Part shown: piece by piece, positions 6,036-64,000 of the stretch
Position numbering within the stretch: the first letter of the stretch is position 1
Layout: each line of letters opens with the position of its first letter
Assembly: GCF_001677475.2 (NCBI RefSeq)
Contig: NZ_CP015229.1
Direction: 5' to 3' (one strand)
DNA length: 64,000 nucleotides
Origin: Escherichia coli
Lineage (GTDB): Bacteria; Pseudomonadota; Gammaproteobacteria; Enterobacterales; Enterobacteriaceae
Translations under genes and position numbers: made by a program
Notes under the pieces: model-generated
The model's database searches: none
What the model saw: the letters and a program-made list of their open reading frames with translations, nothing else
Told to the model about the DNA's origin: nothing

Positions 6036-6548
6036 TTAAATCGCAGCTTCCATTTCCAGCATCACCGGATGGAAACGGCGTTTAAAGTAGATAAGTCCGT
6101 GACCTTCTGCACTGAGGATGATGTTTTTAATCTCCACCAGATACACCAGATGTGTGCCAATTGCCTGCACATCGCGGATCTCACCTTCAAGACTGGCCAG
6201 CGAACCTTTCAGCACCGGCTGCGCCAGCGGACCTTTTTGCCAGCATGAGAGGCTAAAACGCTCTTCCATCGCCATGCCTGTCATGCCCGCGAAGTGGCGT
6301 GCCATCAGTTCCTGCTCATGGTTGAGGACGTTGACGCACAACTTGCCGTTGCCCTGAAAAACCGGGTTCATCGCACTGTTGGCGTTAATGCACACCATCA
6401 GCGACGGTGGTGTATCCGTGACCGAGCAGACAGCCGTTGCCGTAATCCCGCATTGTCCGGCGTCGCCCTCGGTGGTGATAATATTTACCGCTGCCGACAG
6501 GCTGGCCATCGCGTCACGAAAGCGCAGGCGTTGTTCATCTAATTGCAT
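6036..6548 (-). CDS. hpaC: 4-hydroxyphenylacetate 3-monooxygenase reductase component HpaC (flavin reductase)
   Basis: ORF track 6036..6566; MQLDEQRLRFRDAMASLSAAVNIITT... matches HpaC as recalled; immediately downstream of hpaB. Confidence 0.85.
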   Translation of the reverse strand: MQLDEQRLRFRDAMASLSAAVNIITTEGDAGQCGITATAVCSVTDTPPSLMVCINANSAMNPVFQGNGKLCVNVLNHEQELMARHFAGMTGMAMEERFSLSCWQKGPLAQPVLKGSLASLEGEIRDVQAIGTHLVYLVEIKNIILSAEGHGLIYFKRRFHPVMLEMEAAI

Positions 6549-6565
6549 CTTAACCTCCTGCTGCA

Positions 6566-8128
6566 TTATTTCAGCAGCTTATCCAGCATGTTGATATCGT
6601 CGTTGTTGTGCAGGTGCGGCACAGTCCAGCCGTTCTGGTCGTATTCCGACAGGCAGCGATCAACCATCGCCATCATCTTGTCCATATTGCCGGAGCTTTG
6701 TGCCTGGCGCAGACATTGCAGGCGAATCTCATCCTGGCTACCGGAGTAGTTGATTTCATACAGTTCGTGACGACCACCAAATTCGCTGCCAATGGCATCC
6801 CACATCAGTTTGAGGATCTTGATGCGCTGGACGTGATCCATACCATTCGAACCGCGCACATACTTCGCCAGATACTGGTCGATCTGCGGATTGTTCAGGT
6901 CACGGGCACTGGAAGGGAGATAGATCAGGCCACTGGTAACGTTGCGTTCGATAATGTTTTTGATCTTCGCGTAGGCCATTGGTGCCAGTACGCGATAGGT
7001 TTGCAGTGCGGCATGATCCGGTAAATAAGCCCCGTTGACCCACGGCGTCGCTTCAGAACACATCGAGTCACTCAATGCCCAGAAGGTGTTGCGCCACGCC
7101 ACCACTTCACCGAGATCGGCCTGCACACCACGGAACTCCAGGGTGCCGGTACATTCGAGTGATTTTTTCAGCAGTGCCGTAATGAAGTCTAATTTCACTG
7201 CCAGGCGCACACAGGCTTGCAGCGGATACATACGGGCAAAACCACCTTCCATTGTCCAGCGACGGCAGCGATCGAAATCGCGGTAGATCAGTACGTTTTC
7301 CCATGGGATCAGCACGTTATCCATCACCAGAATCGCATCGTTCTCATCAAAGCGGCTGGAGAGCGGGTAGTCGTACGGCGAGCCGGTAGCACCCGCGACC
7401 ATCTCATAAGAGGCGCGGGAGATTAATTTCACGCCATCGGCATCCATTGGCGCAACGAACATCAGTGCGAAGTCCGGGTTTTCGCCCATCACTTGTGCCG
7501 AGCCGAAGCCAATCATGTTGTAGTGAGTCAGCGCCGAGTTGGTGGCAACCACTTTCGCACCGCTGACGATAATCCCGGCGTCAGTCTCTTTTTCCAGCTT
7601 GATGTAAACGTCTTTCACTTTATCGGTCGGCAAATGACGATCGATCGGTGGGTTAACAATCGCGTGGTTAAAGTAGAGGCCAGTTTCCTGAATACGGGTG
7701 TACCAGTTACGGGCGTTCTGCTCGAACTGACCGTAAAAGCCCGGATTCGCGCCCAGTGCGCAACCGAAAGCAGCTTTGTAGTCTGGGGTACGGCCCATCC
7801 AGCCATAGCTCAGGCGTGACCACTCAGCGATGGCGTCGCGTTGCTGGCGCAGGTCGTCGGCACTTTTCGCCACGCGGAAGAATTTATGGGTATAGCCGCC
7901 GCTGCCGGTGTCGGTGTTCCAACACAGAGAGTCCTGCATCTCCGGTTTGTGTAGCGCGTCGTACAGTTGGGCAACAGACGCTGCCGCATTACGAAATGCC
8001 GGATGAGTGGTGACGTCTTTCACTCGCTCGCCGTAGATATAGATCTCGCGACCATCCTGCAGGCTTTTCAGATACTCTTCCCCGGTGAACGGACGTTGGG
8101 TACTGGCGCGGAAATCTTCTGGTTTCAT
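6566..8128 (-). CDS. hpaB: 4-hydroxyphenylacetate 3-monooxygenase oxygenase component HpaB
   Basis: ORF track, 520 aa, MKPEDFRASTQRPFTGEEYLKSLQDGREIYIYGERV. Confidence 0.9.
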   Translation of the reverse strand: MKPEDFRASTQRPFTGEEYLKSLQDGREIYIYGERVKDVTTHPAFRNAAASVAQLYDALHKPEMQDSLCWNTDTGSGGYTHKFFRVAKSADDLRQQRDAIAEWSRLSYGWMGRTPDYKAAFGCALGANPGFYGQFEQNARNWYTRIQETGLYFNHAIVNPPIDRHLPTDKVKDVYIKLEKETDAGIIVSGAKVVATNSALTHYNMIGFGSAQVMGENPDFALMFVAPMDADGVKLISRASYEMVAGATGSPYDYPLSSRFDENDAILVMDNVLIPWENVLIYRDFDRCRRWTMEGGFARMYPLQACVRLAVKLDFITALLKKSLECTGTLEFRGVQADLGEVVAWRNTFWALSDSMCSEATPWVNGAYLPDHAALQTYRVLAPMAYAKIKNIIERNVTSGLIYLPSSARDLNNPQIDQYLAKYVRGSNGMDHVQRIKILKLMWDAIGSEFGGRHELYEINYSGSQDEIRLQCLRQAQSSGNMDKMMAMVDRCLSEYDQNGWTVPHLHNNDDINMLDKLLK

Positions 8129-8378
8129 GTCGACCTCTACAGTATTAATCGGAATACGATTGTTAATTTTGTGTGTTGTTTTTGTTATTCAATTGAAGCT
8201 TGCAGAGGCGATTACGGGAAGACACTTTTGGGACAATGGCTGGTACTTTTCAGGTCGGGTACGGTTTTGTGATCGAGGTCGCTTTTAGCAATTTTTGACG
8301 TTACTAAATCCCCTTGCTCCAGGCGGAGAAAGGGGAATAGCAGGTGGTGCCTGGTTTCCCGTTAAGGCTAAGGGATTT

Positions 8379-9269
8379 TCACGTCACAGGTACTTTTTTG
8401 GCACGATAAGCACTGGGCGAGCAACCGACTAAGCGATTAAAAAAGCGGGCAAAATAAGCCGGATCTTTAAAACCGAGTTGCCAGGCAATATTGTTCACGG
8501 CGTTATCAGAAAACAGCAGCAGCCGCTTGGCTTCTCGCAGCTGCCTGTCGAAAATCAACCGTTTTGGCGGACGGTTGGCAAAGCGGCGGCAGATGTCGGT
8601 GAGGCGTGATTCGGTGATATGCAGTTCGTTAGCGTAATCCGGTACTGTCCAGTGCTGATGAAAATGGCTTTCAATCAGCATATTAAAACGCTGGAACAGT
8701 TTTAATTCTCCGCGCATTCCGCTGGCGGCATGGTCGTCGAGTTTTGCGTTACGCAGCAGTAGGGTGAACACTGCCTGTGCCAGTAACGTCAGGGTGTGTT
8801 CCCGTCCAGGCAGTTGTTCCACCGATTCCCGCTCTATCAGTTGCCAATAGTGTTCCAGCGCCGCCAGTTCGTCGGGTTTATCTGCCAGTGACAGGCAAAT
8901 CCCCGGGAGGCCGAAGGTTTCCCGAGTGCCCGGATAAAGAACTTCCAGCAGGGGCCAGATCAGATCTTCCCGTACCGTCAATACATGACCGTCGGCGTCA
9001 GACTCCGTAATAAACGCATGAGGTACTGACGGCGGCGTCAGGACAAACAGGGGCGCTTCCACCGAGTAACGATGATCGTCAAGCTGTAGCTCAATCTGTC
9101 CGCTATTGAGGAAATGCATCTGAAAGTACTGTTCGTGGCGATGTGGCAGCATATGGCGGCCAAAAAATGCCGCCATGCGGGCGAACGACTGATAATGCAC
9201 ATCGTCCGTGCCCAGGCTTTCATCGTACTCTTTGCTGATATCAATATTGGCAATCTGAGGGTCACACAT
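8379..9269 (-). CDS. hpaA: AraC/XylS-family transcriptional activator HpaA
   Basis: ORF track 296 aa; C-terminal AraC-type HTH; position between hpaX and hpaBC. Confidence 0.8.
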   Translation of the reverse strand: MCDPQIANIDISKEYDESLGTDDVHYQSFARMAAFFGRHMLPHRHEQYFQMHFLNSGQIELQLDDHRYSVEAPLFVLTPPSVPHAFITESDADGHVLTVREDLIWPLLEVLYPGTRETFGLPGICLSLADKPDELAALEHYWQLIERESVEQLPGREHTLTLLAQAVFTLLLRNAKLDDHAASGMRGELKLFQRFNMLIESHFHQHWTVPDYANELHITESRLTDICRRFANRPPKRLIFDRQLREAKRLLLFSDNAVNNIAWQLGFKDPAYFARFFNRLVGCSPSAYRAKKVPVT

Positions 9270-9278
9270 CGTCGTTCC

Positions 9279-10655
9279 TTACGGGGTCGCTCGCGGACGG
9301 GAGGACTGCATTGGAATCGCCCAGATAATCCCCGCACCAATCACCAGCAGCGCGGCAACAAACCACAATCCACTGTTAAAGCTGCCGGTCAGATCTTTCA
9401 ACCAGCCGATCATAAACGGACTTAACGCTGAACCAATGTTGCCAGTGGCGTTGATCACCGCAATACCGATCGCTCGTGCCCGCAGGCTGATGGATTGATC
9501 CGGTGTTGTCCAGAAAATCGCCATTGCGCTGAATGATCCGGTCGAAGCCATAATGATCCCCAGCATCTGGATCATGTTGTGATCAGTTGCCGAAGCCAGT
9601 AACCAACCAGCGGCAGCGAACAAATAAGGAAGGGCGGTGTGATGCCTTCGTTCCTGGCGGCGATCTGAGTGACGGCTCCAGTAGATCATCCCGAGAATGG
9701 TACAAATCTGCGGTACGGCGGCCAGCAGGCCGATGGTGATATTACTGCTGCCCTGATTAAAACTTTGCAGGATCTGCGGTGTCCAGATGCTGATCGCACT
9801 AAGTGTGTTGGTCAGGCAGAAATACGCCAGGGTATACATCATCACCACCGGAGTGAAGATCTCCCGCCACATACTGCGTTGTTGCATGGCGTGGTGGCTG
9901 ATGGCTCCCTCTGGCTGAACCAGCTTCAGACGATCGTTATCCATCATCTCTTGCAGGCATTTTTTGTCTTCTTTCGTCAGCCACTTAGCTTTGTCCGGTG
10001 AGTCATCAAGCCAGAACCACACCATGACGCCGAGTAATACCGACGGGAAGCCTTCCAGCAAAAACAGCCACTGCCAGCCTTTTAATGCCATTACACCATC
10101 CAGCGACAAAATGTAGCCGGAAACGATCGAGCCCAACGCTGTCGTTACCGGCATTGCTACCATAAACAAGGCGTTGGCACGGGCGCGGAAGTAGGCCGGA
10201 AACCAGAAGGTTAAATAGAGCAGAATGCCAGGCAGAAAGCCGGCTTCGGTAATGCCAACCAGTATACGCAGTACGTATAAGCTGGTGGGGCCAGTGGCAA
10301 ACATGGTAGCAGTAGAGGCGATGCCCCAAAGCACCATGATGGTGGCGATCCAGCGCCGCGCACCGACAATACTCAGCATAATGTTGCTGGGAATGCCGAA
10401 GATGACATAAGCGGCATAGAACAGGGTGGTAGCTAGGCCAAACATGGTGGCGCTCAGACCGAGATCGCGTCCCATCGTTAGTCCGGCAAAGCCGATGTTG
10501 ATGCGATCAAGGAACGAGAAGATAAACAGCACGAACAGAAAGACGATCAGGCGGCGAAATAGCTTCTTAATAACCGCCTGTTGTCCGGCAGTCAGCGCTT
10601 TATGCTGATTCGCCGGATCGATACTCTCCGGTATGGCAGGTGAGGTGTCGCTCAT
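9279..10655 (-). CDS. hpaX: 4-hydroxyphenylacetate MFS transporter HpaX
   Basis: ORF track 9279..10715; start set at MSDTSPAIPES; 12-TM MFS-like composition. Confidence 0.8.
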   Translation of the reverse strand: MSDTSPAIPESIDPANQHKALTAGQQAVIKKLFRRLIVFLFVLFIFSFLDRINIGFAGLTMGRDLGLSATMFGLATTLFYAAYVIFGIPSNIMLSIVGARRWIATIMVLWGIASTATMFATGPTSLYVLRILVGITEAGFLPGILLYLTFWFPAYFRARANALFMVAMPVTTALGSIVSGYILSLDGVMALKGWQWLFLLEGFPSVLLGVMVWFWLDDSPDKAKWLTKEDKKCLQEMMDNDRLKLVQPEGAISHHAMQQRSMWREIFTPVVMMYTLAYFCLTNTLSAISIWTPQILQSFNQGSSNITIGLLAAVPQICTILGMIYWSRHSDRRQERRHHTALPYLFAAAGWLLASATDHNMIQMLGIIMASTGSFSAMAIFWTTPDQSISLRARAIGIAVINATGNIGSALSPFMIGWLKDLTGSFNSGLWFVAALLVIGAGIIWAIPMQSSRPRATP

Positions 10656-10699
10656 TTTTCTTCCTCTAATGGGATTTTTGTAGGGTACGACAAGGTTTA

Positions 10700-10829
<130 letters not shown>

Positions 10830-11618
10830 TTAATACACGCCGGGCTTCACGGCGGTGGCCTGCGCACCAAACCGTGCTGCCAGCGCTTCGGCGGCGCGGG
10901 CGAGCAGGGTGGTGTCAACGCCGACGGCGACAAACAGCGCGCCCAGTTCCAGATAGCGTTTTGCCAGTTGCTCATTGGCGATCAGGATCCCCGGTGCTTT
11001 GCCCGCTTCGCGGATCTGCACGATCGCCTGCTCAATAGCGGCCTGTACTTCCGGGTGCTGCGGATTACCGGCATAACCCATATCGGCGCTCAGATCCGCC
11101 GGGCCGATAAACACGCCGTCTACTCCTTCCACGTCCAGAATCTGCGGTAAGTTCTTCATTGCCTCACGCGTTTCGATCTGCACCAGCACGCACATTTGAT
11201 CGTTGGCTTTTTGTAGGTAATCAGGAATACGATTCCAGCGCGAGGCGCGGGCCAGCGCACTGCCCACACCGCGAATACCGGCGGGGGGATAACGGGTGGC
11301 GCGTACCGCTTCACGGGCTTCGTCGGCGTTTTGTACCATCGGCACCAGTAAGGTTTGTGTGCCGACGTCCAGCAGTTGTTTGATTTGCACCGGATCGTTC
11401 CACGACGGACGCACTACCGGCTGGCTGGGGTAGGGCGCAATCGCCTGTAGCTGGGTGAGCACGGTTTGCACGTTATTCGGCGCGTGCTCACCGTCGATCA
11501 ACAACCAGTCGAATCCTGCTCCGGCCAGTAACTCTGCGCTGTAGCTGCTACTCAGCCCCAGCCATAATCCGATCTGCGGGCGGCCTGCTTTCAGCGCCGC
11601 TTTAAAACTGTTTTCCAT
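10830..11618 (-). CDS. hpaI: 2,4-dihydroxyhept-2-ene-1,7-dioate aldolase HpaI
   Basis: ORF track 10830..11759; internal Met [19 protein letters not shown] gives 262 aa class II aldolase-like protein. Confidence 0.85.
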
Positions 11619-11628
11619 CGTTCTCTCC

Positions 11629-12432
11629 TTAAACAAAGCGGCAGCTAATGGAACCCATGTTGCCGTAATCGACGTGGAAGGTGTCCCCCTTACGCGCCGG
11701 AACCGGGCGGGTGAACGAACCGCCGAGAATGATTTGCCCGGCTTCCAGTTGCACGTCATACGGTGCGAGTTTGTTCGCCAGCCAGGCCACGCCGTTTGCC
11801 GGATGATTCAGCACACCAGCGGCGACGCCGGTTTCTTCAATCACGCCATTGCGATACATCAGGGCGGAGATCCAACGTAGATCCAACTCATCGGGCTTAA
11901 TGGGACGACCTCCGAGAATCACCCCGGCATTGGCGGCGTTATCGGAAATGGTGTCGAATACTTTGCGCGGGCGCTGGGTTTCCGGATCGATGTTGTGGCA
12001 GCGAGCGTCGATCAGCTCCAGCGCCGGGATCACGTAGTCCGTGGCGTTGTAAACGTCGAACAGCGTGCAGTTTGGCCCACGCAGCGGTTTTGCCAGCACA
12101 AAAGCCAGCTCCACTTCAATGCGCGGCACGATGAAGCGATCGGTCGGGATATCGCTGCCATCGTGGAAGAACATGTCATCCAGCAGGGCACCGTAATCCG
12201 GTTCGCTGATTTGTGAGCTGGCCTGCATCGCTTTCGAGGTCAGGCCGATTTTGTGGCCTTTCAGCGTGCGGCCTTCGGCAATTTTCAGGCGTACCCATTC
12301 GCGCTGTACGGCGTAGGCGTCTTCGATGGTGATCTCCGGGTAATCCAGCGAGATCGCGCGGATCTGTTCGCGCTGTTTTTCTGCCTGATCCAGACGCTGG
12401 GCGATCAGTGTGTAGGTGTGTTTGTCGAACAT
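11629..12432 (-). CDS. hpaH: 2-oxo-hept-3-ene-1,7-dioate hydratase HpaH
   Basis: ORF track 11629..12498; start set at [19 protein letters not shown], 267 aa. Confidence 0.85.
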
Positions 12433-12500
12433 AGCGATATCCTGTGGCATTGCCGGATGGCGGCTGCGCCTTATCATCCGGCCTGGAAGCTGGTGCAAAT

Positions 12501-12881
12501 TTATTTAAACAACGCGTGTACGTTGTTCTGTTTGAAATTCAACGTCGGGTGCAGCTCTGCAATCTCAAATGAAAGCGCCAGGTAACGGCTCTCCATCAGT
12601 GAGGCGAAGTGCGTTTTAATCAGATCAAACAGCATTTCGCCCACTTCCTGACGGCTTTCCAGACTGCGTCCGCTGCCGATTTTTAGTGTCATATGCACAA
12701 AGGCGTAATCGTGCTTGCCATCAGCCATTTGCCAGGTATCGATCCAGTGCGCCCGGCTACGTATTCCCCCAAGCGGAAAAATCCCCGTCGCCGCCAGTGC
12801 AGTGTTAACACTGGCAAACAGCTCAGGTAAGCGGGCTTCTTGACGAATATTTTCAGTACATTCCACGATAAAGTGCGGCAT
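12501..12881 (-). CDS. hpaF: 5-carboxymethyl-2-hydroxymuconate isomerase HpaF
   Basis: ORF track, 126 aa, [22 protein letters not shown]. Confidence 0.85.
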
Positions 12882-12890
12882 GGTGGTTCC

Positions 12891-13742
12891 TTACGCGGGC
12901 AGCGGGAAAACAGCGTTAACCTGACCGGTGCCAGAGCTTGGGAACAGCTCGGTGATAAACTCCACCTTGCCGTCGTATTTATCCCAGCCGAGCATCCCCA
13001 GCAGCATCACCGTGTCGTGCATATTGCCTTCGCCGTAGCAGTAGTCGGCGTACTCCGGCAGCATATTGCAGAACTCTTTGAACTGGCCTTCGCGCCACAG
13101 CTTCACCACGCGCTCGTCCATCTGGCGGTCGAACTCGCGGGTGTAGCTGTTCATCCCTTCTTCTGCACGCTGATCGTCAATAAAGCGGTGCGATAACGAA
13201 CCGCTGGCAAGGACCGCCACGGTACCGTCGTACTGTTCGATCGCTTTCAGAATCGCTTCGCCCAGCTTGCGGCTGTCGGCAAAATCGTGAACCGTGCAGA
13301 AAGCCGAAATGGAAACCACTTTGAAGTGCTTGTCTTCATTCATGTAGCGCATTGGCACCAGCGTGCCGTATTCCAGTTTCAGGCTGGGAATGTTGTGCGC
13401 TTTCGCCCGCACGCCGAGCTTTAAGGCTTCATCGGCAATTAGCTGCCCCAACTCCGGGTTGCCCTCGTAGTTGTAGGTCATGTCACGAATAAAATGCGGC
13501 AGCTCGTTACTGGTGTAGACGCCTTCAAAATGGTCTGCACAGTTGATGTGATAAGCACTGTTGACCAGCCAGTGGGTATCGAAAACGATAATGGTATCGA
13601 CGCCCATTTCCCGGCAACGCTTGCTGATCTCTTTATGCCCGTCGATCGCGCCCTGGCGGCAACCGTGGTTTTTCCCTGGCAGTTCAGAGAGATACATCGA
13701 CGGTACGTGCGTGATCTTGGCGGCTAACGCTAACTTACCCAT
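12891..13742 (-). CDS. hpaD: 3,4-dihydroxyphenylacetate 2,3-dioxygenase HpaD
   Basis: ORF track, 283 aa extradiol dioxygenase-like; position in hpa operon. Confidence 0.85.
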   Translation of the reverse strand: MGKLALAAKITHVPSMYLSELPGKNHGCRQGAIDGHKEISKRCREMGVDTIIVFDTHWLVNSAYHINCADHFEGVYTSNELPHFIRDMTYNYEGNPELGQLIADEALKLGVRAKAHNIPSLKLEYGTLVPMRYMNEDKHFKVVSISAFCTVHDFADSRKLGEAILKAIEQYDGTVAVLASGSLSHRFIDDQRAEEGMNSYTREFDRQMDERVVKLWREGQFKEFCNMLPEYADYCYGEGNMHDTVMLLGMLGWDKYDGKVEFITELFPSSGTGQVNAVFPLPA

Positions 13743-13743
13743 A

Positions 13744-15210
13744 TCAGACTCCCCATTTCGGAATTGGATGGTCGCCCATGGAAATGCAGACGTTCTTCAT
13801 TTCCGCGAACACTTCGAAGCTGTACTCACCGCCTTCACGCCCGGTGCCGGAGGCTTTTACGCCGCCAAACGGCTGGCGCAGGTCGCGCACGTTCTGGGTG
13901 TTGACGAACACCATGCCTGCTTCAATGCCACGCGCCAGGCGTAACACTTTGCTGACATCCTGTGTCCAGATGTACGACGCGAGGCCGTACTCCACGTCGT
14001 TTGCCAGGCGCAGACCTGCGGCTTCGTCTTTAAACGGCAGCAGGCAGGCGACCGGCCCGAAAATCTCTTCCTGGGCGACGCGCATACGGTTATCAACGTC
14101 TGCCAGCACCGTTGGGCGCAGGAAGTTACCGCCTTTCAGGTGCGCAGGCAGGTCGGACGGTTTATCCGGACCGCCCGCCAGCAGGGTTGCGCCTTCTTCA
14201 ATGCCGAGACGGATATAGCCGGAGACTTTTTCCCAGTGTTGCTGGCTGATAAGCGCCCCAACCTGGGTATTCGGATCGTTCGGATCGCCCACGCGCAGAC
14301 GGTTGGCGCGTTCGGCAAAGCGTTTAACGAATTCTGGATAGATGCTCTGTTGAATAAAGATGCGCGAACCGGCGGTGCAGCGTTCGCCGTTGATTGAGAA
14401 GATGGTGAACAGGGCGGCGTCCAGCGCGCGCTCAATATCGGCATCTTCAAAAATCAGCACCGGCGATTTTCCGCCCAGTTCCATGGAGTATTTTTTCAGC
14501 CCGGCGTTTTTCATGATGTTGCGCCCGGTGGCGGTACCGCCGGTGAACGACACGGCACGCACGTCATGATGACGGACCAGCGCATCGCCTGCGGTTGCGC
14601 CGTAGCCCTGTACCACGTTCAGCACGCCCGCCGGAATACCGGCTTCCAGCGCCAGCTCACCCAGGCGGTCAGCGGTCAGCGGGGAGAGTTCTGACATTTT
14701 CAGTACCGCGGTATTGCCCAGCGCCAGACACGGCGCGACTTTCCAGGTGGCGGTCATAAACGGCACGTTCCACGGCGACACCAGTGCACAAACGCCTACC
14801 GGCTGCACCAGCGTGTAGTTGAGCATCTTGTCGTCGACCGGATAAGTCTTGCCGTTCATCTGCTGGCAGACTTCCGCGAAAAATTCAAAGTTGTGGGAAG
14901 CGCGTGGGATCAACACATTTTTGGTCTGATGGATTGGCAGGCCCGTGTCAGCGGTTTCCATCGCGGCGATCTCAGGCACGTTCTGGTCGATCAGATCGCC
15001 CAGACGGCGCATCAGGCGCGCACGCTCTTTCATCGGCAGATTGGCCCATTTCGGGAACGCCTCTTTCGCTGCCGCTACCGCCTGATTGATCTCCGCTTCA
15101 CCGCCGGAGGCCACATCCGCCAGCACCTCACCGGTTGCTGGATTGGTGGTCTGGAAATAGTCGTTACCTGCAACATTTTTGCCGTTGATCCAATGATTTA
15201 CTTTTTTCAT
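13744..15210 (-). CDS. hpaE: 5-carboxymethyl-2-hydroxymuconate semialdehyde dehydrogenase HpaE
   Basis: ORF track, 488 aa aldehyde dehydrogenase family. Confidence 0.85.
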   Translation of the reverse strand: MKKVNHWINGKNVAGNDYFQTTNPATGEVLADVASGGEAEINQAVAAAKEAFPKWANLPMKERARLMRRLGDLIDQNVPEIAAMETADTGLPIHQTKNVLIPRASHNFEFFAEVCQQMNGKTYPVDDKMLNYTLVQPVGVCALVSPWNVPFMTATWKVAPCLALGNTAVLKMSELSPLTADRLGELALEAGIPAGVLNVVQGYGATAGDALVRHHDVRAVSFTGGTATGRNIMKNAGLKKYSMELGGKSPVLIFEDADIERALDAALFTIFSINGERCTAGSRIFIQQSIYPEFVKRFAERANRLRVGDPNDPNTQVGALISQQHWEKVSGYIRLGIEEGATLLAGGPDKPSDLPAHLKGGNFLRPTVLADVDNRMRVAQEEIFGPVACLLPFKDEAAGLRLANDVEYGLASYIWTQDVSKVLRLARGIEAGMVFVNTQNVRDLRQPFGGVKASGTGREGGEYSFEVFAEMKNVCISMGDHPIPKWGV

Positions 15211-16496
15211 TTCGCTGTATCCTCACTCACAATTCGGTTCACCAGGTGGCCCACGCCTTCTACTTCCACCACTACTTCATCGCCAGGCACCACGTCAGAT
15301 AAGCCTTTTGGTGTGCCGGTGGCGATCATGTCGCCCGGATTCAGGGTCATAAATTCGCTTAAGTAGGCGATCAGGAAGGGCACGCTGAAGATCAGATCGG
15401 CGGTGGTGCCTTGCTGGCGTAACTCGCCGTTGACGAAGGTGCGAAGGGTCAGATTATGCGGGTCCGGGATCGCCTCTTTCGGCACGATGGTTGAAAGCAT
15501 CGGCGTCAGTCCGTCGCGGCTTTTTACCCGCAGGTTAGGGCGGTAGTAGTTTTCCAGATAGTCGCGAATGGCGTAGTCGTTACACACGGTGTAGCCCGCG
15601 ACATAATCCATGGCATCGGCTTCACTGACGTTACGCGCCTGCTTGCCAATAACTACCACCAGCTCCGCTTCGTAGTGCATGTATTCAATCTTGTTCGGGC
15701 GCACGGAGGTCTGGTTATCGCCAGTGAGGGTATTCGACGCTTTCAGGAACACCAGCGGCTCTTCCGGTGGCTTAAATTCCAGTTCGCTGGCGTGGTCGGC
15801 GTAGTTCAGGCCGAGGGCAAACAGCGTACCGTGCGGGTGTGGCAGCGTTGGGAAGCTCTTGCGCGTGGTCACTTCACGTTCGTCCACTACCGGATTTTCC
15901 AGCGGCGGGAAACCTTCTGCGAGAACACGAACGCGATCGCCTGGCTGTATTTCCACGCGCGCCTGTGGCGTGCCGAGCAGAATGGCATCGCCTGGATTCA
16001 GCGTGGCAAATTCGCTCAGGGCGCTCAGCAGCTGTGCGGCGTTACGTTGTAAATCGGCGGTGTTCCAGTGATCGGCAGGACGCCCGTTGATCTCGGTATA
16101 GATGGTCAGATTATCGACATTGCTGAGAGCCACGGTTTCGCCAATGGGGCAGAATCCATCACGACATTTTGCTTTGATTGCCGGGCGGTAAAAGCTCTCT
16201 TCCGGCAGGCTGACGTCGTTAGCCAGCGCATATCCGGCGATGTACTCTGCCGCATCTTCTTCACGTACTTTCGTCGCCGTTTTCCCCACAATCAGCGCAA
16301 CAGTCGCACCGCTCAGTACCTTTTCACCCTGTGGAAAGGGAATCGGTTCACCGCAACCAATCACCGTATTGCGCGGTTTAATAAACCAGACCGCAGTTTT
16401 AGGCGGGGCTTTGTAGGGGGATTTCTGGAACGCTTCCTGCCATGCATCAAGTTGGCTGCGATGGTTCAACGCTACGGCGAAGATAGTGCCTTTCAT
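15207..16496 (-). CDS. hpaG: Bifunctional 4-hydroxyphenylacetate degradation isomerase/decarboxylase HpaG
   Basis: ORF track 15207..16502 (GTG); ATG two codons in gives MKGTIFAVALNHRSQLDAW, 429 aa, duplicated FAH-like halves. Confidence 0.85.
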   Translation of the reverse strand: MKGTIFAVALNHRSQLDAWQEAFQKSPYKAPPKTAVWFIKPRNTVIGCGEPIPFPQGEKVLSGATVALIVGKTATKVREEDAAEYIAGYALANDVSLPEESFYRPAIKAKCRDGFCPIGETVALSNVDNLTIYTEINGRPADHWNTADLQRNAAQLLSALSEFATLNPGDAILLGTPQARVEIQPGDRVRVLAEGFPPLENPVVDEREVTTRKSFPTLPHPHGTLFALGLNYADHASELEFKPPEEPLVFLKASNTLTGDNQTSVRPNKIEYMHYEAELVVVIGKQARNVSEADAMDYVAGYTVCNDYAIRDYLENYYRPNLRVKSRDGLTPMLSTIVPKEAIPDPHNLTLRTFVNGELRQQGTTADLIFSVPFLIAYLSEFMTLNPGDMIATGTPKGLSDVVPGDEVVVEVEGVGHLVNRIVSEDTAK

Positions 16497-16521
16497 TACC
16501 ACTCCTCGGATTCGATCATCT

Positions 16522-16545
16522 TAATCATTAATATATTAATGATTA
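16522..16545. promoter_or_regulatory. Perfect 24-bp palindrome in hpaG/hpaR divergent promoter region; candidate HpaR operator
   Basis: taatcattaatatattaatgatta is its own reverse complement; lies ~25 bp upstream of hpaG start. Confidence 0.5.
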
Positions 16546-16767
16546 CTTTTATTCCCGATTGCGTAGTTTGGCAAAAGTAAGTGATGTAAATGTGATCTAA
16601 TTAACAAACTATTTACATTTAAAGATAATAAAATATTAAATATCAGCAAGTTAACAAAACATGCTCAATTTTGATAAAATGAAGAATTGCAGGGGCAGCG
16701 CAGTCCCGGTAACGTGATGATTAACTGTTTCTATATTAATGATTTTGAATTTTTCAGGGGAAAGATA

Positions 16768-17214
16768 ATGCACGACTCTCTAACCATTGCGTTGCTCCAG
16801 GCGCGAGAAGCGGCGATGAGTTATTTTCGCCCAATCGTTAAACGGCATAATTTGACTGAGCAACAGTGGCGCATCGTGCGTATTCTGGCGGAAAGCCCAT
16901 CAATGGATTTTCACGATCTGGCGTATCGCGCCTGCATTTTGCGCCCAAGCCTGACCGGGATCCTCACGCGGATGGAACGCGACGGTTTAGTGTTGCGATT
17001 AAAGCCGATCAATGATCAGCGGAAGCTCTATATCTCGCTGACCAAAGAGGGGCAGGCGCTGTATAACCGCGCTCAGACACAGATTGAAGAAGCCTATCGG
17101 CAGATTGAAGCTCAGTTTACTGCTGAGAAAATGCAACAGTTAACCCATCTGTTAGAGGAATTTATTGCTCTGGGTAATTCCCGACAAGAAGACATCCCGG
17201 GCGATAATGAATAA
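16768..17214 (+). CDS. hpaR: MarR-family repressor of the hpa meta-cleavage operon HpaR
   Basis: ORF track 16687..17214; ATG at 16768 preceded by AGGGGAAAG RBS; MHDSLTIALLQAREAAMSYFRP, 148 aa winged-helix protein divergent from hpaG. Confidence 0.8.
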   Translation: MHDSLTIALLQAREAAMSYFRPIVKRHNLTEQQWRIVRILAESPSMDFHDLAYRACILRPSLTGILTRMERDGLVLRLKPINDQRKLYISLTKEGQALYNRAQTQIEEAYRQIEAQFTAEKMQQLTHLLEEFIALGNSRQEDIPGDNE

Positions 17215-63197: not shown

Positions 63198-63545
63198 ATG
63201 GTGACGAAAACCATCACTGAACAGCGTGCGGAAGTACGTATTTTTGCCGGTAATGATCCGGCTCATACCGCCACAGGCAGCAGCGGGATTTCTCAGGCAA
63301 CACCGGCACTGACGCCCCTGATGCTGGATGAGTCTACCGGGAAACTGGTGGTCTGGGACGGACAGAAAGCCGGTAGTGCGGCTGGCATACTGGTACTGCC
63401 GCTTGAAGGCACAGAGACGGTGCTGACGTATTACAAGTCGGGAACCTTTGCGACGGAGGCAATCCACTGGCCTGAAAGTGTGGATGAACACAAAAAGGCC
63501 AACGCCTTTGCCGGCAGTGCCCTGAGTCACGCGGCGCTGCCGTAA
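63198..63545 (+). CDS. D: Head decoration protein (gpD-like)
   Basis: ORF track 115 aa; MVTKTITEQRAEVRIFAGNDPAHTATGSSG... Confidence 0.85.
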   Translation: MVTKTITEQRAEVRIFAGNDPAHTATGSSGISQATPALTPLMLDESTGKLVVWDGQKAGSAAGILVLPLEGTETVLTYYKSGTFATEAIHWPESVDEHKKANAFAGSALSHAALP

Positions 63546-63602
63546 CACGTTATCAGGCCACCGCGGTGGCCTGACTGATTTCTGAATGAAAGGAACTGAT
63601 TT

Positions 63603-64000
63603 ATGGGATTGTTTACGACCCGCCAGTTGCTCGGTTATACCGAACAAAAAGTGAAATATCGTGCGCTGTTTCTGGAGCTGTTTTTCCGCCGTACGGTGAA
63701 TTTCCATACCGAAGAGGTGATGCTGGACAAAATTACCGGAAAAACGCCGGTGGCGGCCTATGTCTCCCCGGTTGTTGAAGGAAAAGTGCTGCGTCATCGT
63801 GGTGGTGAAACCCGCGTGTTGCGTCCGGGCTACGTCAAGCCGAAACACGAATTTAATTACCAGCAGGCGGTTGAGCGCCTTCCTGGTGAAGATCCATCTC
63901 AACTGAACGATCCGGCTTACCGCCGTCTGCGTATCATTACCGATAACCTCAAACAGGAAGAGCACGCGATTGTCCAGGTGGAAGAAATGCAGGCGGTAAA
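63603..64000 (+). CDS. E: Major capsid protein (gpE-like), 5' part; continues beyond window
   Basis: Own translation from ATG ~63603: MGLFTTRQLLGYTEQKVKYRALFLELFFRRTVNFHTEEVMLDKITGKTPVAAYVSPVVEG...; RBS AAAGGAACTG. Confidence 0.8.
   Translation, partial: MGLFTTRQLLGYTEQKVKYRALFLELFFRRTVNFHTEEVMLDKITGKTPVAAYVSPVVEGKVLRHRGGETRVLRPGYVKPKHEFNYQQAVERLPGEDPSQLNDPAYRRLRIITDNLKQEEHAIVQVEEMQAV

What the first reader, a model, noticed from the sequence alone, without database searches (positions are those of the whole stretch)
16503..16767. Perfect 24-bp palindrome at the hpaG/hpaR divergent promoter
taatcattaatatattaatgatta is exactly self-complementary and lies just upstream of hpaG in the AT-rich region shared with hpaR. 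It is a strong candidate operator for the MarR-type repressor HpaR.
Basis: seen in the sequence. Interest (0 to 1): 0.3.

Follow-up and report, generated by a model that had tools for sequence, protein, structure and literature searches.

The report
Known HpaR repressor operator, rare allele
The 24-base palindrome is real and is almost certainly the already-described main binding site (OPR1) of the HpaR repressor that switches off the E. coli 4-hydroxyphenylacetate degradation genes; the only unusual thing is that this strain carries a rare single-base variant that makes the palindrome perfect.

Summary
Observation confirmed. TAATCATTAATATATTAATGATTA lies at 16522-16545, 25 nt upstream of the hpaG ATG. 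It is the longest perfect palindrome in the window, and only 5 of 20,000 composition-matched simulations of the spacer reach 24 nt.

Interpretation supported, but not new. The window is E. coli, with a complete hpa cluster and an HpaR identical to E. coli W HpaR, the characterised repressor. The site matches E. coli W at 23 of 24 positions. Its core, CATTAA-N4-TTAATG, fits the TTAA-N4-TTAA motif footprinted with Yersinia HpaR and described there as similar to E. coli W.

Across 77 loci from about 20 Enterobacterales genera the core is almost invariant at a fixed distance from hpaG. It abuts a conserved promoter-like block and lies near a CRP-like site.

A weaker second site sits 200 bp away at 16721-16744. 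That is about +47 of the predicted hpaR promoter, matching the cited second operator and repression-loop model. The spacing is kept at 193-208 bp across genera.

The perfect palindrome is a rare allele: 13 of 2,072 E. coli genomes carrying the locus. About 98%, including strain W, have G at 16535, a position that varies freely between genera.

No binding was tested here, and the primary 2003 paper could not be read. Already known; low interest.

The parts
16522..16545 (.). OPR1-type HpaR operator: perfect 24-bp palindrome TAATCATTAA-TATA-TTAATGATTA. The conserved core CATTAA-N4-TTAATG is at 16526-16541, and the dyad axis falls between 16533 and 16534.
   Evidence: searches (I4) show it exists and is not chance. 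Searches show the core matches 12/12 in nearly all Enterobacterales loci. One search shows 23/24 identity to E. coli W. PMC7180172 gives the TTAA-N4-TTAA footprint motif.
16535..16535 (.). Single-base polymorphism in the central spacer of the operator. The window has A, which makes the palindrome perfect. E. coli W and about 98% of E. coli genomes with the locus have G.
   Evidence: 13 genomes carry the window allele; 2,034 genomes carry the G allele. Alignments. Between genera the spacer reads YATR (TATG 41, TATA 30, CATA 6, CATG 1).
16721..16744 (.). OPR2-type second, weaker HpaR site: TTAACTGTTTCTATATTAATGATT. Its right half, TATATTAATGATT (16732-16744), is identical to the right half of OPR1. 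Its left half is degenerate. It lies exactly 200 bp from OPR1.
   Evidence: D1 spacing 200; I2 13-nt arm, 100%; a related site is found 193-208 bp from OPR1 in all genera, mean core score 9.4/12 against 7.0-8.3 at control offsets. TTAATGAT is conserved; cited binding at about +47 of the hpaR promoter.
16546..16574 (-). [quoted passage not shown] The start site is inferred near 16540, inside OPR1.
   Evidence: Both blocks are conserved across 47 distinct Enterobacteriaceae spacers. The hexamer assignment and the start site are my inference. The consensus scan did not call this promoter.
16588..16609 (.). CRP-like site AAATGTGATCTAATTAACAAAC (TGTGA-N6-TAACA, centre 16598.5), about 58-62 bp upstream of the inferred Pg start.
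   Evidence: TGTGA (16591-16595) and TAAC (16602-16605) are 100% conserved in 47 spacers. The match to the CRP consensus is judged from established knowledge of that consensus. Binding was not tested.
16651..16680 (+). Predicted Pr promoter of hpaR: -35 TTAACA (16651-16656), 18-nt spacer, extended -10 TGATAAAAT (16672-16680). The start site is inferred near 16686, which places the OPR2 centre (16733) at about +47.
   Evidence: Promoter scan, (10/12 match, TG present). Agrees with the '+47' statement in PMC6888825 citing Galan 2003.
16768..17214 (+). hpaR: MarR-family repressor, 148 aa, identical to E. coli W HpaR.
   Evidence: TIGR02337, 201 bits against a cut-off of 121. (0 differences from WP_000543916.1 of strain W). 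(PDB relatives NadR 5AIP and A. baumannii HpaR 7EL2/7EL3).
10830..16496 (-). The regulated hpa-meta operon hpaG-E-D-F-H-I. The hpaG ATG is at 16496. hpaX, hpaA and hpaBC follow further downstream at 6036-10715.
   Evidence: equivalog-level NCBIfam hits for every gene. Same gene order as annotated in E. coli W.

Best explanation
The palindrome is the primary operator (OPR1 in the nomenclature of Galan et al. 2003, recalled from memory) of HpaR, the MarR-family repressor encoded 222 bp away on the other strand.

Proposed mechanism:
1. An HpaR homodimer places its two winged-helix domains on the two half-sites, TCATTAA and TTAATGA. Their centres are about 10 bp apart, on one face of the DNA.
2. 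The site begins immediately downstream of the -10 block of the hpaG (Pg) promoter and covers the inferred transcription start. Bound HpaR therefore blocks RNA polymerase and keeps the hpaGEDFHI meta-cleavage operon off.
3. A second, weaker half-palindromic site (OPR2, 16721-16744) lies 200 bp away, at about +47 of the hpaR promoter. HpaR bound there, helped by cooperative contact with OPR1 through a DNA loop, represses hpaR itself.
4. 4-hydroxyphenylacetate, 3-hydroxyphenylacetate or 3,4-dihydroxyphenylacetate bind HpaR and release it.
5. A conserved CRP-like site upstream of Pg then allows activation when glucose is absent.

Shown here: the sequence, its statistical improbability, its conservation, the second site and its spacing, and the identity of the protein to the characterised one.

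Taken from literature: repression of both promoters, binding at two sites, the loop proposal and the inducers.

Inferred: the exact promoter hexamers, the start sites and the role of CRP.

The A at 16535 that makes the palindrome perfect lies in the central 4-bp spacer, which varies freely (YATR) between genera. It is most likely neutral or of small effect.
For: - The palindrome exists and is improbable by chance.
- The flanking genes are hpaG and hpaR at equivalog level, and the complete hpa cluster is present.
- HpaR is 100% identical to E. coli W HpaR. The spacer has the same length, and OPR1 differs only at 16535.
- HpaR footprints in Yersinia pseudotuberculosis cover two sites with TTAA-N4-TTAA, described as 'similar to E. 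coli W'. One overlaps the -10 element; the other is reported at -189 (PMC7180172).
- Comparative footprint. The core CATTAA-N4-TTAATG matches 12/12 in most Enterobacteriaceae and Serratia loci, and 10-11/12 in Hafnia, Photorhabdus and a few others, among 77 loci from about 20 genera. Its centre lies 34-54 bp from the hpaG ATG in all but one locus (L059, 179 bp).
- It is the most conserved block of the spacer, next to conserved -10-like, -35-like and CRP-like blocks.
- A second related site is kept 193-208 bp away even though its distance to the hpaR ATG ranges from 23 to 258 bp.
- The same 13-nt half-site occurs in both sites of the window.
- Inducer: 4-hydroxyphenylacetate binds HpaR and induces the catabolic genes (PMC2791445, citing Galan 2003). 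4HPA and 3,4-dihydroxyphenylacetate are suggested HpaR ligands that de-repress hpaGEDFHI (PMC10364317).
Against: - No binding or expression experiment can be done with these tools.
- The primary paper (Galan et al. 2003, PMC275547) is not held. The names OPR1 and OPR2 and the statement that OPR1 overlaps the Pg +1 rest on my recollection plus secondary citations.
- Transcription starts are only predicted. The Pg -10 is a poor consensus match and was not called by the scan.
- The OPR1-OPR2 distance is conserved only to about +/-6 bp (196, 199-201, 205), not at a fixed helical phase. Strict phase-dependent looping is therefore not demonstrated.
- Purified Serratia plymuthica HpaR showed no binding of 4HPA or 3,4HPA by calorimetry (PMC10364317). 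The inducer step is less secure biochemically than the DNA-binding step.
Confidence: 0.93

Rival explanations
1. The palindrome acts at the RNA level. Transcribed as part of the hpaG 5' untranslated region, it would fold into a hairpin that affects mRNA stability or translation rather than binding HpaR.
For: The site lies between the predicted promoter and the hpaG ribosome-binding site. The minus-strand RNA can form a 10-bp A/U-rich stem. In Photorhabdus the outer core pair changes on both sides (C..G to T..A), which keeps the symmetry.
Against: The hairpin is weak and no better than shuffled sequence (centroid -6.8 kcal/mol, z = -0.86, 38 of 200 shuffles fold as well). There is no Rfam match. 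The inferred start site lies inside the palindrome, so the full stem would not be transcribed. Conservation is of specific bases (invariant TTAA..TTAA) rather than of pairing. The same half-site recurs in a non-palindromic second site that cannot form a hairpin.
Confidence: 0.03
2. The site is bound mainly by another protein that prefers AT-rich DNA (H-NS, IHF, Fis or an unidentified regulator), and HpaR acts elsewhere in the spacer.
For: The spacer is 70% A+T. The hpa cluster is accessory DNA, present in 2,072 of 5,426 complete E. coli genomes, which is the kind of DNA H-NS often coats (general knowledge). Other conserved blocks with no assigned role exist in the spacer (16608-16617).
Against: The exact dyad symmetry with half-sites one helical turn apart is what a MarR dimer needs. 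The motif equals the one footprinted with HpaR in Yersinia. It co-occurs with hpaR in every locus examined, at a fixed position. Within the 64-kb window the strict core occurs only here. Nucleoid proteins do not require such invariant bases.
Confidence: 0.03
3. The palindrome is a chance product of AT-rich sequence with no function.
For: AT-rich spacers do produce short palindromes: 8-14 nt palindromes are common in the simulations.
Against: Only 5 of 20,000 simulations reach 24 nt. The core is conserved from Escherichia to Serratia and Photorhabdus while neighbouring columns drop to 40-50% identity.
Confidence: 0.01

Closest known systems
HpaR operators OPR1/OPR2 of the E. coli W hpaG-hpaR intergenic region (Galan, Kolb, Sanz, Garcia and Prieto 2003, Nucleic Acids Res 31:6598)
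   Same: Same species, same genes and same 271-bp spacer length. The HpaR protein is identical. OPR1 is 23/24 identical and OPR2 is identical. The two sites are 200 bp apart, and the second is at about +47 of the predicted hpaR promoter, as cited.
   Different: One base differs: A instead of G at window 16535, in the central spacer. This makes the palindrome perfect. The allele is found in only 13 of 2,072 E. coli genomes carrying the locus. Nine other substitutions lie between the two operators. The primary paper could not be read here, so coordinates were matched through secondary citations.
[quoted passage not shown]
   Same: DNase I-footprinted HpaR sites containing TTAA-N4-TTAA. One site overlaps the -10 of the hpa-meta promoter and a second lies about 180-190 bp away. 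HpaR represses the operon.
   Different: Different genus. There hpaBC is part of the same operon and there is no HpaA. Yersinia HpaR also activates T6SS4 through a GC-richer imperfect site. The Yersinia sequence itself was not fetched here.
Acinetobacter baumannii HpaR-DNA complex (PDB 7EL3; Permsirivisarn et al. 2022, FEBS J)
   Same: Homologous MarR-family HpaR (E = 1e-32 to the window protein). It was crystallised on a pseudo-palindromic operator with symmetric contacts from the two subunits (as described in PMC12541388).
   Different: Distant orthologue.
NadR of Neisseria meningitidis (PDB 5AIP), a 4-hydroxyphenylacetate-responsive MarR repressor
   Same: It is the closest solved relative of the window's HpaR (E = 6e-44). 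It is released by 4HPA and binds several operators flanking a promoter (PMC2791445).
   Different: It regulates an adhesin gene (nadA), not a catabolic operon. Its operator sequences were not compared.
Generic MarR-family operators (for example marO of E. coli)
   Same: A 16-24 bp (pseudo)palindrome in the spacer between the regulator gene and a divergent target, overlapping the -10/+1 region. Repression works by steric hindrance and is relieved by a phenolic ligand (general description in PMC8070244).
   Different: The sequence motif is specific to HpaR. The use of a distant second site with proposed looping is less common in the family.

Membership tests
HpaR operator OPR1 of the E. coli hpa-meta (Pg) promoter | Lies in the spacer between divergent hpaG (hpa-meta operon) and hpaR | tested here: met
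   Palindrome at 16522-16545, between the hpaG ATG (16496, minus strand) and the hpaR ATG (16768, plus strand). Gene identities.
HpaR operator OPR1 of the E. coli hpa-meta (Pg) promoter | Sequence equals the homologous site of E. coli W, the strain in which the operators were mapped | tested here: met
   23/24 identical, with the single difference at 16535 (A vs G). The spacer length is identical at 271 bp.
HpaR operator OPR1 of the E. coli hpa-meta (Pg) promoter | Cognate repressor present and intact | tested here: met
   HpaR is 148 aa, covers TIGR02337 over its full length (201 bits), and is 100% identical to strain W HpaR.
HpaR operator OPR1 of the E. coli hpa-meta (Pg) promoter | Contains the palindromic TTAA-N4-TTAA core seen in HpaR footprints | tested here: met
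   TTAA-TATA-TTAA at 16528-16539. The motif is as reported in PMC7180172.
HpaR operator OPR1 of the E. coli hpa-meta (Pg) promoter | Overlaps the transcription start of Pg | tested here: inconclusive
   Conserved -35-like TTGCCA and an A/T-rich -10-like block end at 16546, directly abutting the site. This predicts a start near 16540, inside the site. No transcript data were available, and the promoter scan did not call it.
HpaR operator OPR1 of the E. coli hpa-meta (Pg) promoter | Partner operator (OPR2) about 200 bp away, downstream of the hpaR promoter start (about +47) | tested here: met
   A related site at 16721-16744 lies exactly 200 bp away. Its centre is at about +47 of the predicted Pr. 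It is conserved across genera at 193-208 bp.
HpaR operator OPR1 of the E. coli hpa-meta (Pg) promoter | Physically bound by HpaR and released by 4HPA, 3HPA or 3,4-dihydroxyphenylacetate | not testable with these tools
   Needs EMSA or footprinting. Supported only by literature.
MarR-family operator (general) | Dyad-symmetric site of about 16-24 bp with half-site centres about one helical turn apart | tested here: met
   The half-sites CATTAA (16526-16531) and TTAATG (16536-16541) have centres 10 bp apart. The palindrome is a perfect 24 bp.
MarR-family operator (general) | Evolutionary conservation above the surrounding non-coding DNA | tested here: met
   Core columns are 80-100% conserved against 40-60% in flanking columns, over 47 distinct Enterobacteriaceae spacers. 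The consensus is TTCATTAA-YATR-TTAATGA over 57 distinct genus/sequence pairs.

The most novel reading that the evidence does not exclude
The A allele at 16535 is carried by about 0.6% of E. coli genomes that have the hpa cluster, and it turns the operator into a perfect 24-bp palindrome. It could be a natural regulatory variant that changes HpaR affinity or DNA bendability at the dyad, and so changes the basal level or induction threshold of the hpa-meta operon.

Separately, the OPR1-OPR2 distance is held at 193-208 bp from Escherichia to Photorhabdus, while the OPR2-hpaR distance drifts from 23 to 258 bp. This could mean that a HpaR-mediated DNA loop is an obligatory, conserved part of the switch across Enterobacterales. 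That has not, to my knowledge, been shown comparatively.
Probability: 0.2. Interest if true: 0.25.

Novelty: already known. Interest (0 to 1): 0.1.

Why it matters
It matters little beyond annotation. The finding correctly rediscovers, from sequence alone, a repressor binding site that was mapped experimentally in E. coli W two decades ago.

Three by-products of this check have modest value:
- A cross-genus consensus for the HpaR operator (TTCATTAA-YATR-TTAATGA), which could be used to annotate hpa regulons or to design 4-hydroxyphenylacetate biosensors.
- The observation that the two-operator geometry (about 200 bp) is conserved across Enterobacterales.
- The identification of a rare natural operator allele that could be compared with the common one to measure how the central spacer affects MarR-type binding.

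Tried and rejected
- I tried to read the primary paper by DOI, PubMed id and PMC id and a 2004 review of aromatic-pathway regulators. None is held.
- Full-text searches for 'OPR1', 'OPR2' and the operator sequence strings found nothing useful. The link to the published operators therefore rests on secondary citations and on my memory of the abstract.
- Several papers found by name concern unrelated 'HpaR' or 'HpaR1' proteins of Xanthomonas, or HpARI of a nematode. I discarded them.
- RNA explanations were tested and rejected. The hairpin is no more stable than shuffles, and the region has no Rfam family; the only hit is a meaningless snoRNA match at E = 0.43.
- I searched the rest of the window for further HpaR-type cores. 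Apart from OPR1, only 2-mismatch matches were found, at a number close to chance expectation (7 found, 3.6 expected). There is no evidence of extra regulon members here.
- A strong-looking plus-strand promoter, TTAACA-17-GATAAT (16601-16629), was rejected as Pr. Its -10 is poorly conserved and is disrupted in E. coli W (T16629G). It would also put OPR2 at about +97 rather than the cited +47.
- I first assumed from locus L001 that the common E. coli allele was CATA. The count showed only 1 genome with that 36-mer. The true common allele is TATG.
- I tested whether the operator spacing keeps a fixed helical phase. It does not (196, 199-201 and 205 bp).

Full report
**The observation.** The 24-mer TAATCATTAATATATTAATGATTA occurs once in the window, at 16522-16545. 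It consists of two 12-nt arms that are 100% complementary with no gap between them (pair I4).

The site is the longest perfect palindrome in the 64 kb. No match with up to 3 mismatches appeared in 100 dinucleotide shuffles of the window. Only 5 of 20,000 first-order Markov simulations of the AT-rich spacer, and 1 of 200 simulations of the whole window, produced a perfect palindrome of 24 nt or more.

**Context.** The spacer is flanked by two genes:
- On the minus strand, a 429-aa protein that matches the HpaG isomerase/decarboxylase model end to end (967 bits; its ATG is at 16496).
- On the plus strand, a 148-aa MarR-family protein that matches the HpaR equivalog model (201 bits against a cut-off of 121; its ATG is at 16768).

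Downstream of hpaG lie hpaE, D, F, H, I, X, A, B and C, all at equivalog level. tsr follows hpaR. The 501 bases around the spacer are 95-99.6% identical to 2,072 of 5,426 complete E. coli genomes, where the genes are annotated hpaG and hpaR. The gene order is the same as in E. coli W. The window's HpaR is identical, residue for residue, to E. coli W HpaR.

**What is known.** I could not open the primary paper, Galan et al. 2003, Nucleic Acids Res 31:6598. Papers that cite it state the following:
- HpaR binds the hpaR-hpaGEDFHI intergenic region and represses both the hpaG operon and hpaR.
[quoted passage not shown] - 4-hydroxyphenylacetate binds the repressor and induces the catabolic genes (PMC2791445; PMC10364317).

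A footprinting study of the Yersinia pseudotuberculosis orthologue found two HpaR-protected sites in the hpaG1 promoter. Each contains TTAA-N4-TTAA, described as 'similar to E. coli W'. One is centred at -8 and overlaps the -10 element; the other is reported at -189 (PMC7180172). My own recollection of the 2003 abstract is that the two E. coli sites are named OPR1 (palindromic, overlapping the +1 of Pg) and OPR2 (about 200 bp away, bound cooperatively). That recollection is a lead, not a tool result.

**Matching the window to that description.** The centre of the palindrome reads TTAA-TATA-TTAA (16528-16539), which is the footprinted motif. A second copy of the right half-site, TATATTAATGATT, lies at 16732-16744, and the two 24-mers are exactly 200 bp apart (D1 and I2).

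The promoter scan finds TTAACA, 18 nt, TAAAAT with an upstream TG at 16651-16680 on the hpaR strand. A start about 6-7 nt downstream (about 16686) puts the centre of the second site (16733) at +47, the figure cited from the 2003 paper.

On the hpaG strand, a conserved TTGCCA (16574 to 16569) is followed 16-17 nt later by a conserved A/T block (16552 to 16546) that directly abuts the palindrome. The inferred start (about 16540) therefore falls inside it. These hexamer and start-site assignments are inferences.

E. coli W has the same 271-bp spacer. Its OPR2 region is identical, and its OPR1 differs from the window at one base, G instead of A at 16535.

**Comparative test.** A scan of one genome per species with HpaR returned 80 loci. 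In 77 of them hpaG and hpaR are divergent neighbours.
- The 12 specified positions of CATTAA-N4-TTAATG match 12/12 in most Enterobacteriaceae and Serratia loci, and 10-11/12 in Hafnia, Photorhabdus and a few others.
- The site centre lies 34-54 bp from the hpaG ATG in all but one locus (L059, 179 bp).
- Over 57 distinct genus/sequence pairs the consensus is TTCATTAA-YATR-TTAATGA. The TTAA tetramers are 100% invariant.

In an alignment of 47 distinct Enterobacteriaceae spacers, the operator core is the most conserved block (80-100% per column). The other conserved blocks are:
- the -10-like and -35-like blocks of Pg;
- a CRP-like TGTGA-N6-TAACA (16591-16606), with half-sites 100% conserved;
- a block ACTATTTACA (16608-16617) of unknown role;
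- the right half of the second operator.

Intervening columns fall to 30-60%.

A second related site is found 193-208 bp from the first in every genus: Enterobacter 199, Klebsiella and Raoultella 200-201, Kluyvera 197-198, Serratia 196, Hafnia 199-200, Photorhabdus 205. Its mean core score is 9.4/12, against 7.0-8.3 for equally wide control intervals elsewhere in the spacer. Its distance to the hpaR ATG ranges from 23 to 258 bp. The geometry of the two sites is therefore conserved while DNA downstream of the second site is free to grow. That fits cooperative binding, although the spacing is not held to a single helical phase.

**The perfect palindrome is a rare allele.** A 36-base query centred on the window's site needs a 28-base exact word to match. 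It matches only 13 of the 2,072 E. coli genomes that carry the locus. The same query with G at 16535 matches 2,034. A third variant (C at 16532) matches one.

Alignments confirm that the best overall matches differ from the window in the spacer only at this base. Between genera the central four bases read TATG (41 loci), TATA (30), CATA (6) or CATG (1). The two positions flanking the dyad therefore tolerate transitions.

**Rivals.**
- RNA hairpin in the hpaG leader. It is weak (centroid -6.8 kcal/mol) and no better than shuffles (z = -0.86). No RNA family matches. The inferred start lies inside the palindrome. The same half-site recurs in a non-palindromic second site.
- Binding by a general AT-rich DNA-binding protein. 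This does not explain invariant bases, dyad symmetry with one-turn spacing, or the strict association with hpaR.
- Chance. This is excluded by the simulations and by conservation.
- Additional regulon members. The strict core occurs nowhere else in the window, and looser matches are near chance expectation.

**Mechanism, with status of each step.**
1. An HpaR dimer binds the two half-sites of 16522-16545. This is inferred from motif identity with footprinted sites and from the literature.
2. Occupancy overlaps the -10/+1 region of Pg and blocks transcription of hpaGEDFHI. Repression comes from the literature; the geometry is inferred here.
3. A second, weaker site at about +47 of Pr gives autorepression, probably through cooperative looping over 200 bp. 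The loop proposal comes from the literature; conservation of the spacing is shown here; looping itself is unproven.
4. Hydroxyphenylacetates release HpaR. This comes from the literature. A negative calorimetry result for the Serratia protein is a caveat.
5. CRP activates Pg from the conserved site centred at 16598.5. This is inferred from sequence and conservation only.

**Verdict.** The element is the already-described HpaR operator of the E. coli hpa-meta promoter, so it is not novel. The only new details are a rare single-base allele, a cross-genus operator consensus, and the conserved two-site spacing. Interest is low.

Noticed in passing
window 16608-16617: The block ACTATTTACA is 80-100% conserved across 47 Enterobacteriaceae hpaG-hpaR spacers but has no assigned role. 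TTTACA could be a -35 element of a second plus-strand promoter or part of another factor's site.
   Followed up: partly
window 16587-16608 and 16637-16658: A 22-nt direct repeat lies 50 bp apart (TAAATGTGATCTAATTAACAAA / TAAATATCAGCAAGTTAACAAA, D2). The first copy is a good CRP-like site with fully conserved half-sites. The second is a weak CRP-like TATCA-N6-TAACA that overlaps the predicted -35 of the hpaR promoter and is partly conserved.
   Followed up: partly
loci L050-L080 (Serratia, Hafnia, Photorhabdus), between the second operator and the hpaR ATG: The distance from the OPR2-like site to the hpaR start codon grows from 23-38 bp in Enterobacteriaceae to 56-115 bp in Serratia and up to 258 bp in Photorhabdus. 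The OPR1-OPR2 distance stays at 196-205 bp, so insertions accumulate only outside the two-operator interval.
   Followed up: partly
window 63553-63574: A perfect 22-nt G+C-rich palindrome, TCAGGCCACCGCGGTGGCCTGA, is the second-longest in the window. It sits in a 58-nt gap between the end of a 115-aa ORF (63198-63545) and an ATG at 63604. It looks like an intergenic stem-loop or terminator.
   Followed up: no
E. coli genome collection: The hpaG-hpaR region is present in 2,072 of 5,426 complete E. coli genomes. Two of those copies are on plasmids rather than chromosomes.
   Followed up: no
window 16601-16629: A near-consensus sigma-70 match, TTAACA-17-GATAAT (10/12), lies on the plus strand with its -35 overlapping the CRP-like site. 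Its -10 is poorly conserved and is GATAAG in E. coli W, so it is probably not a functional promoter.
   Followed up: partly
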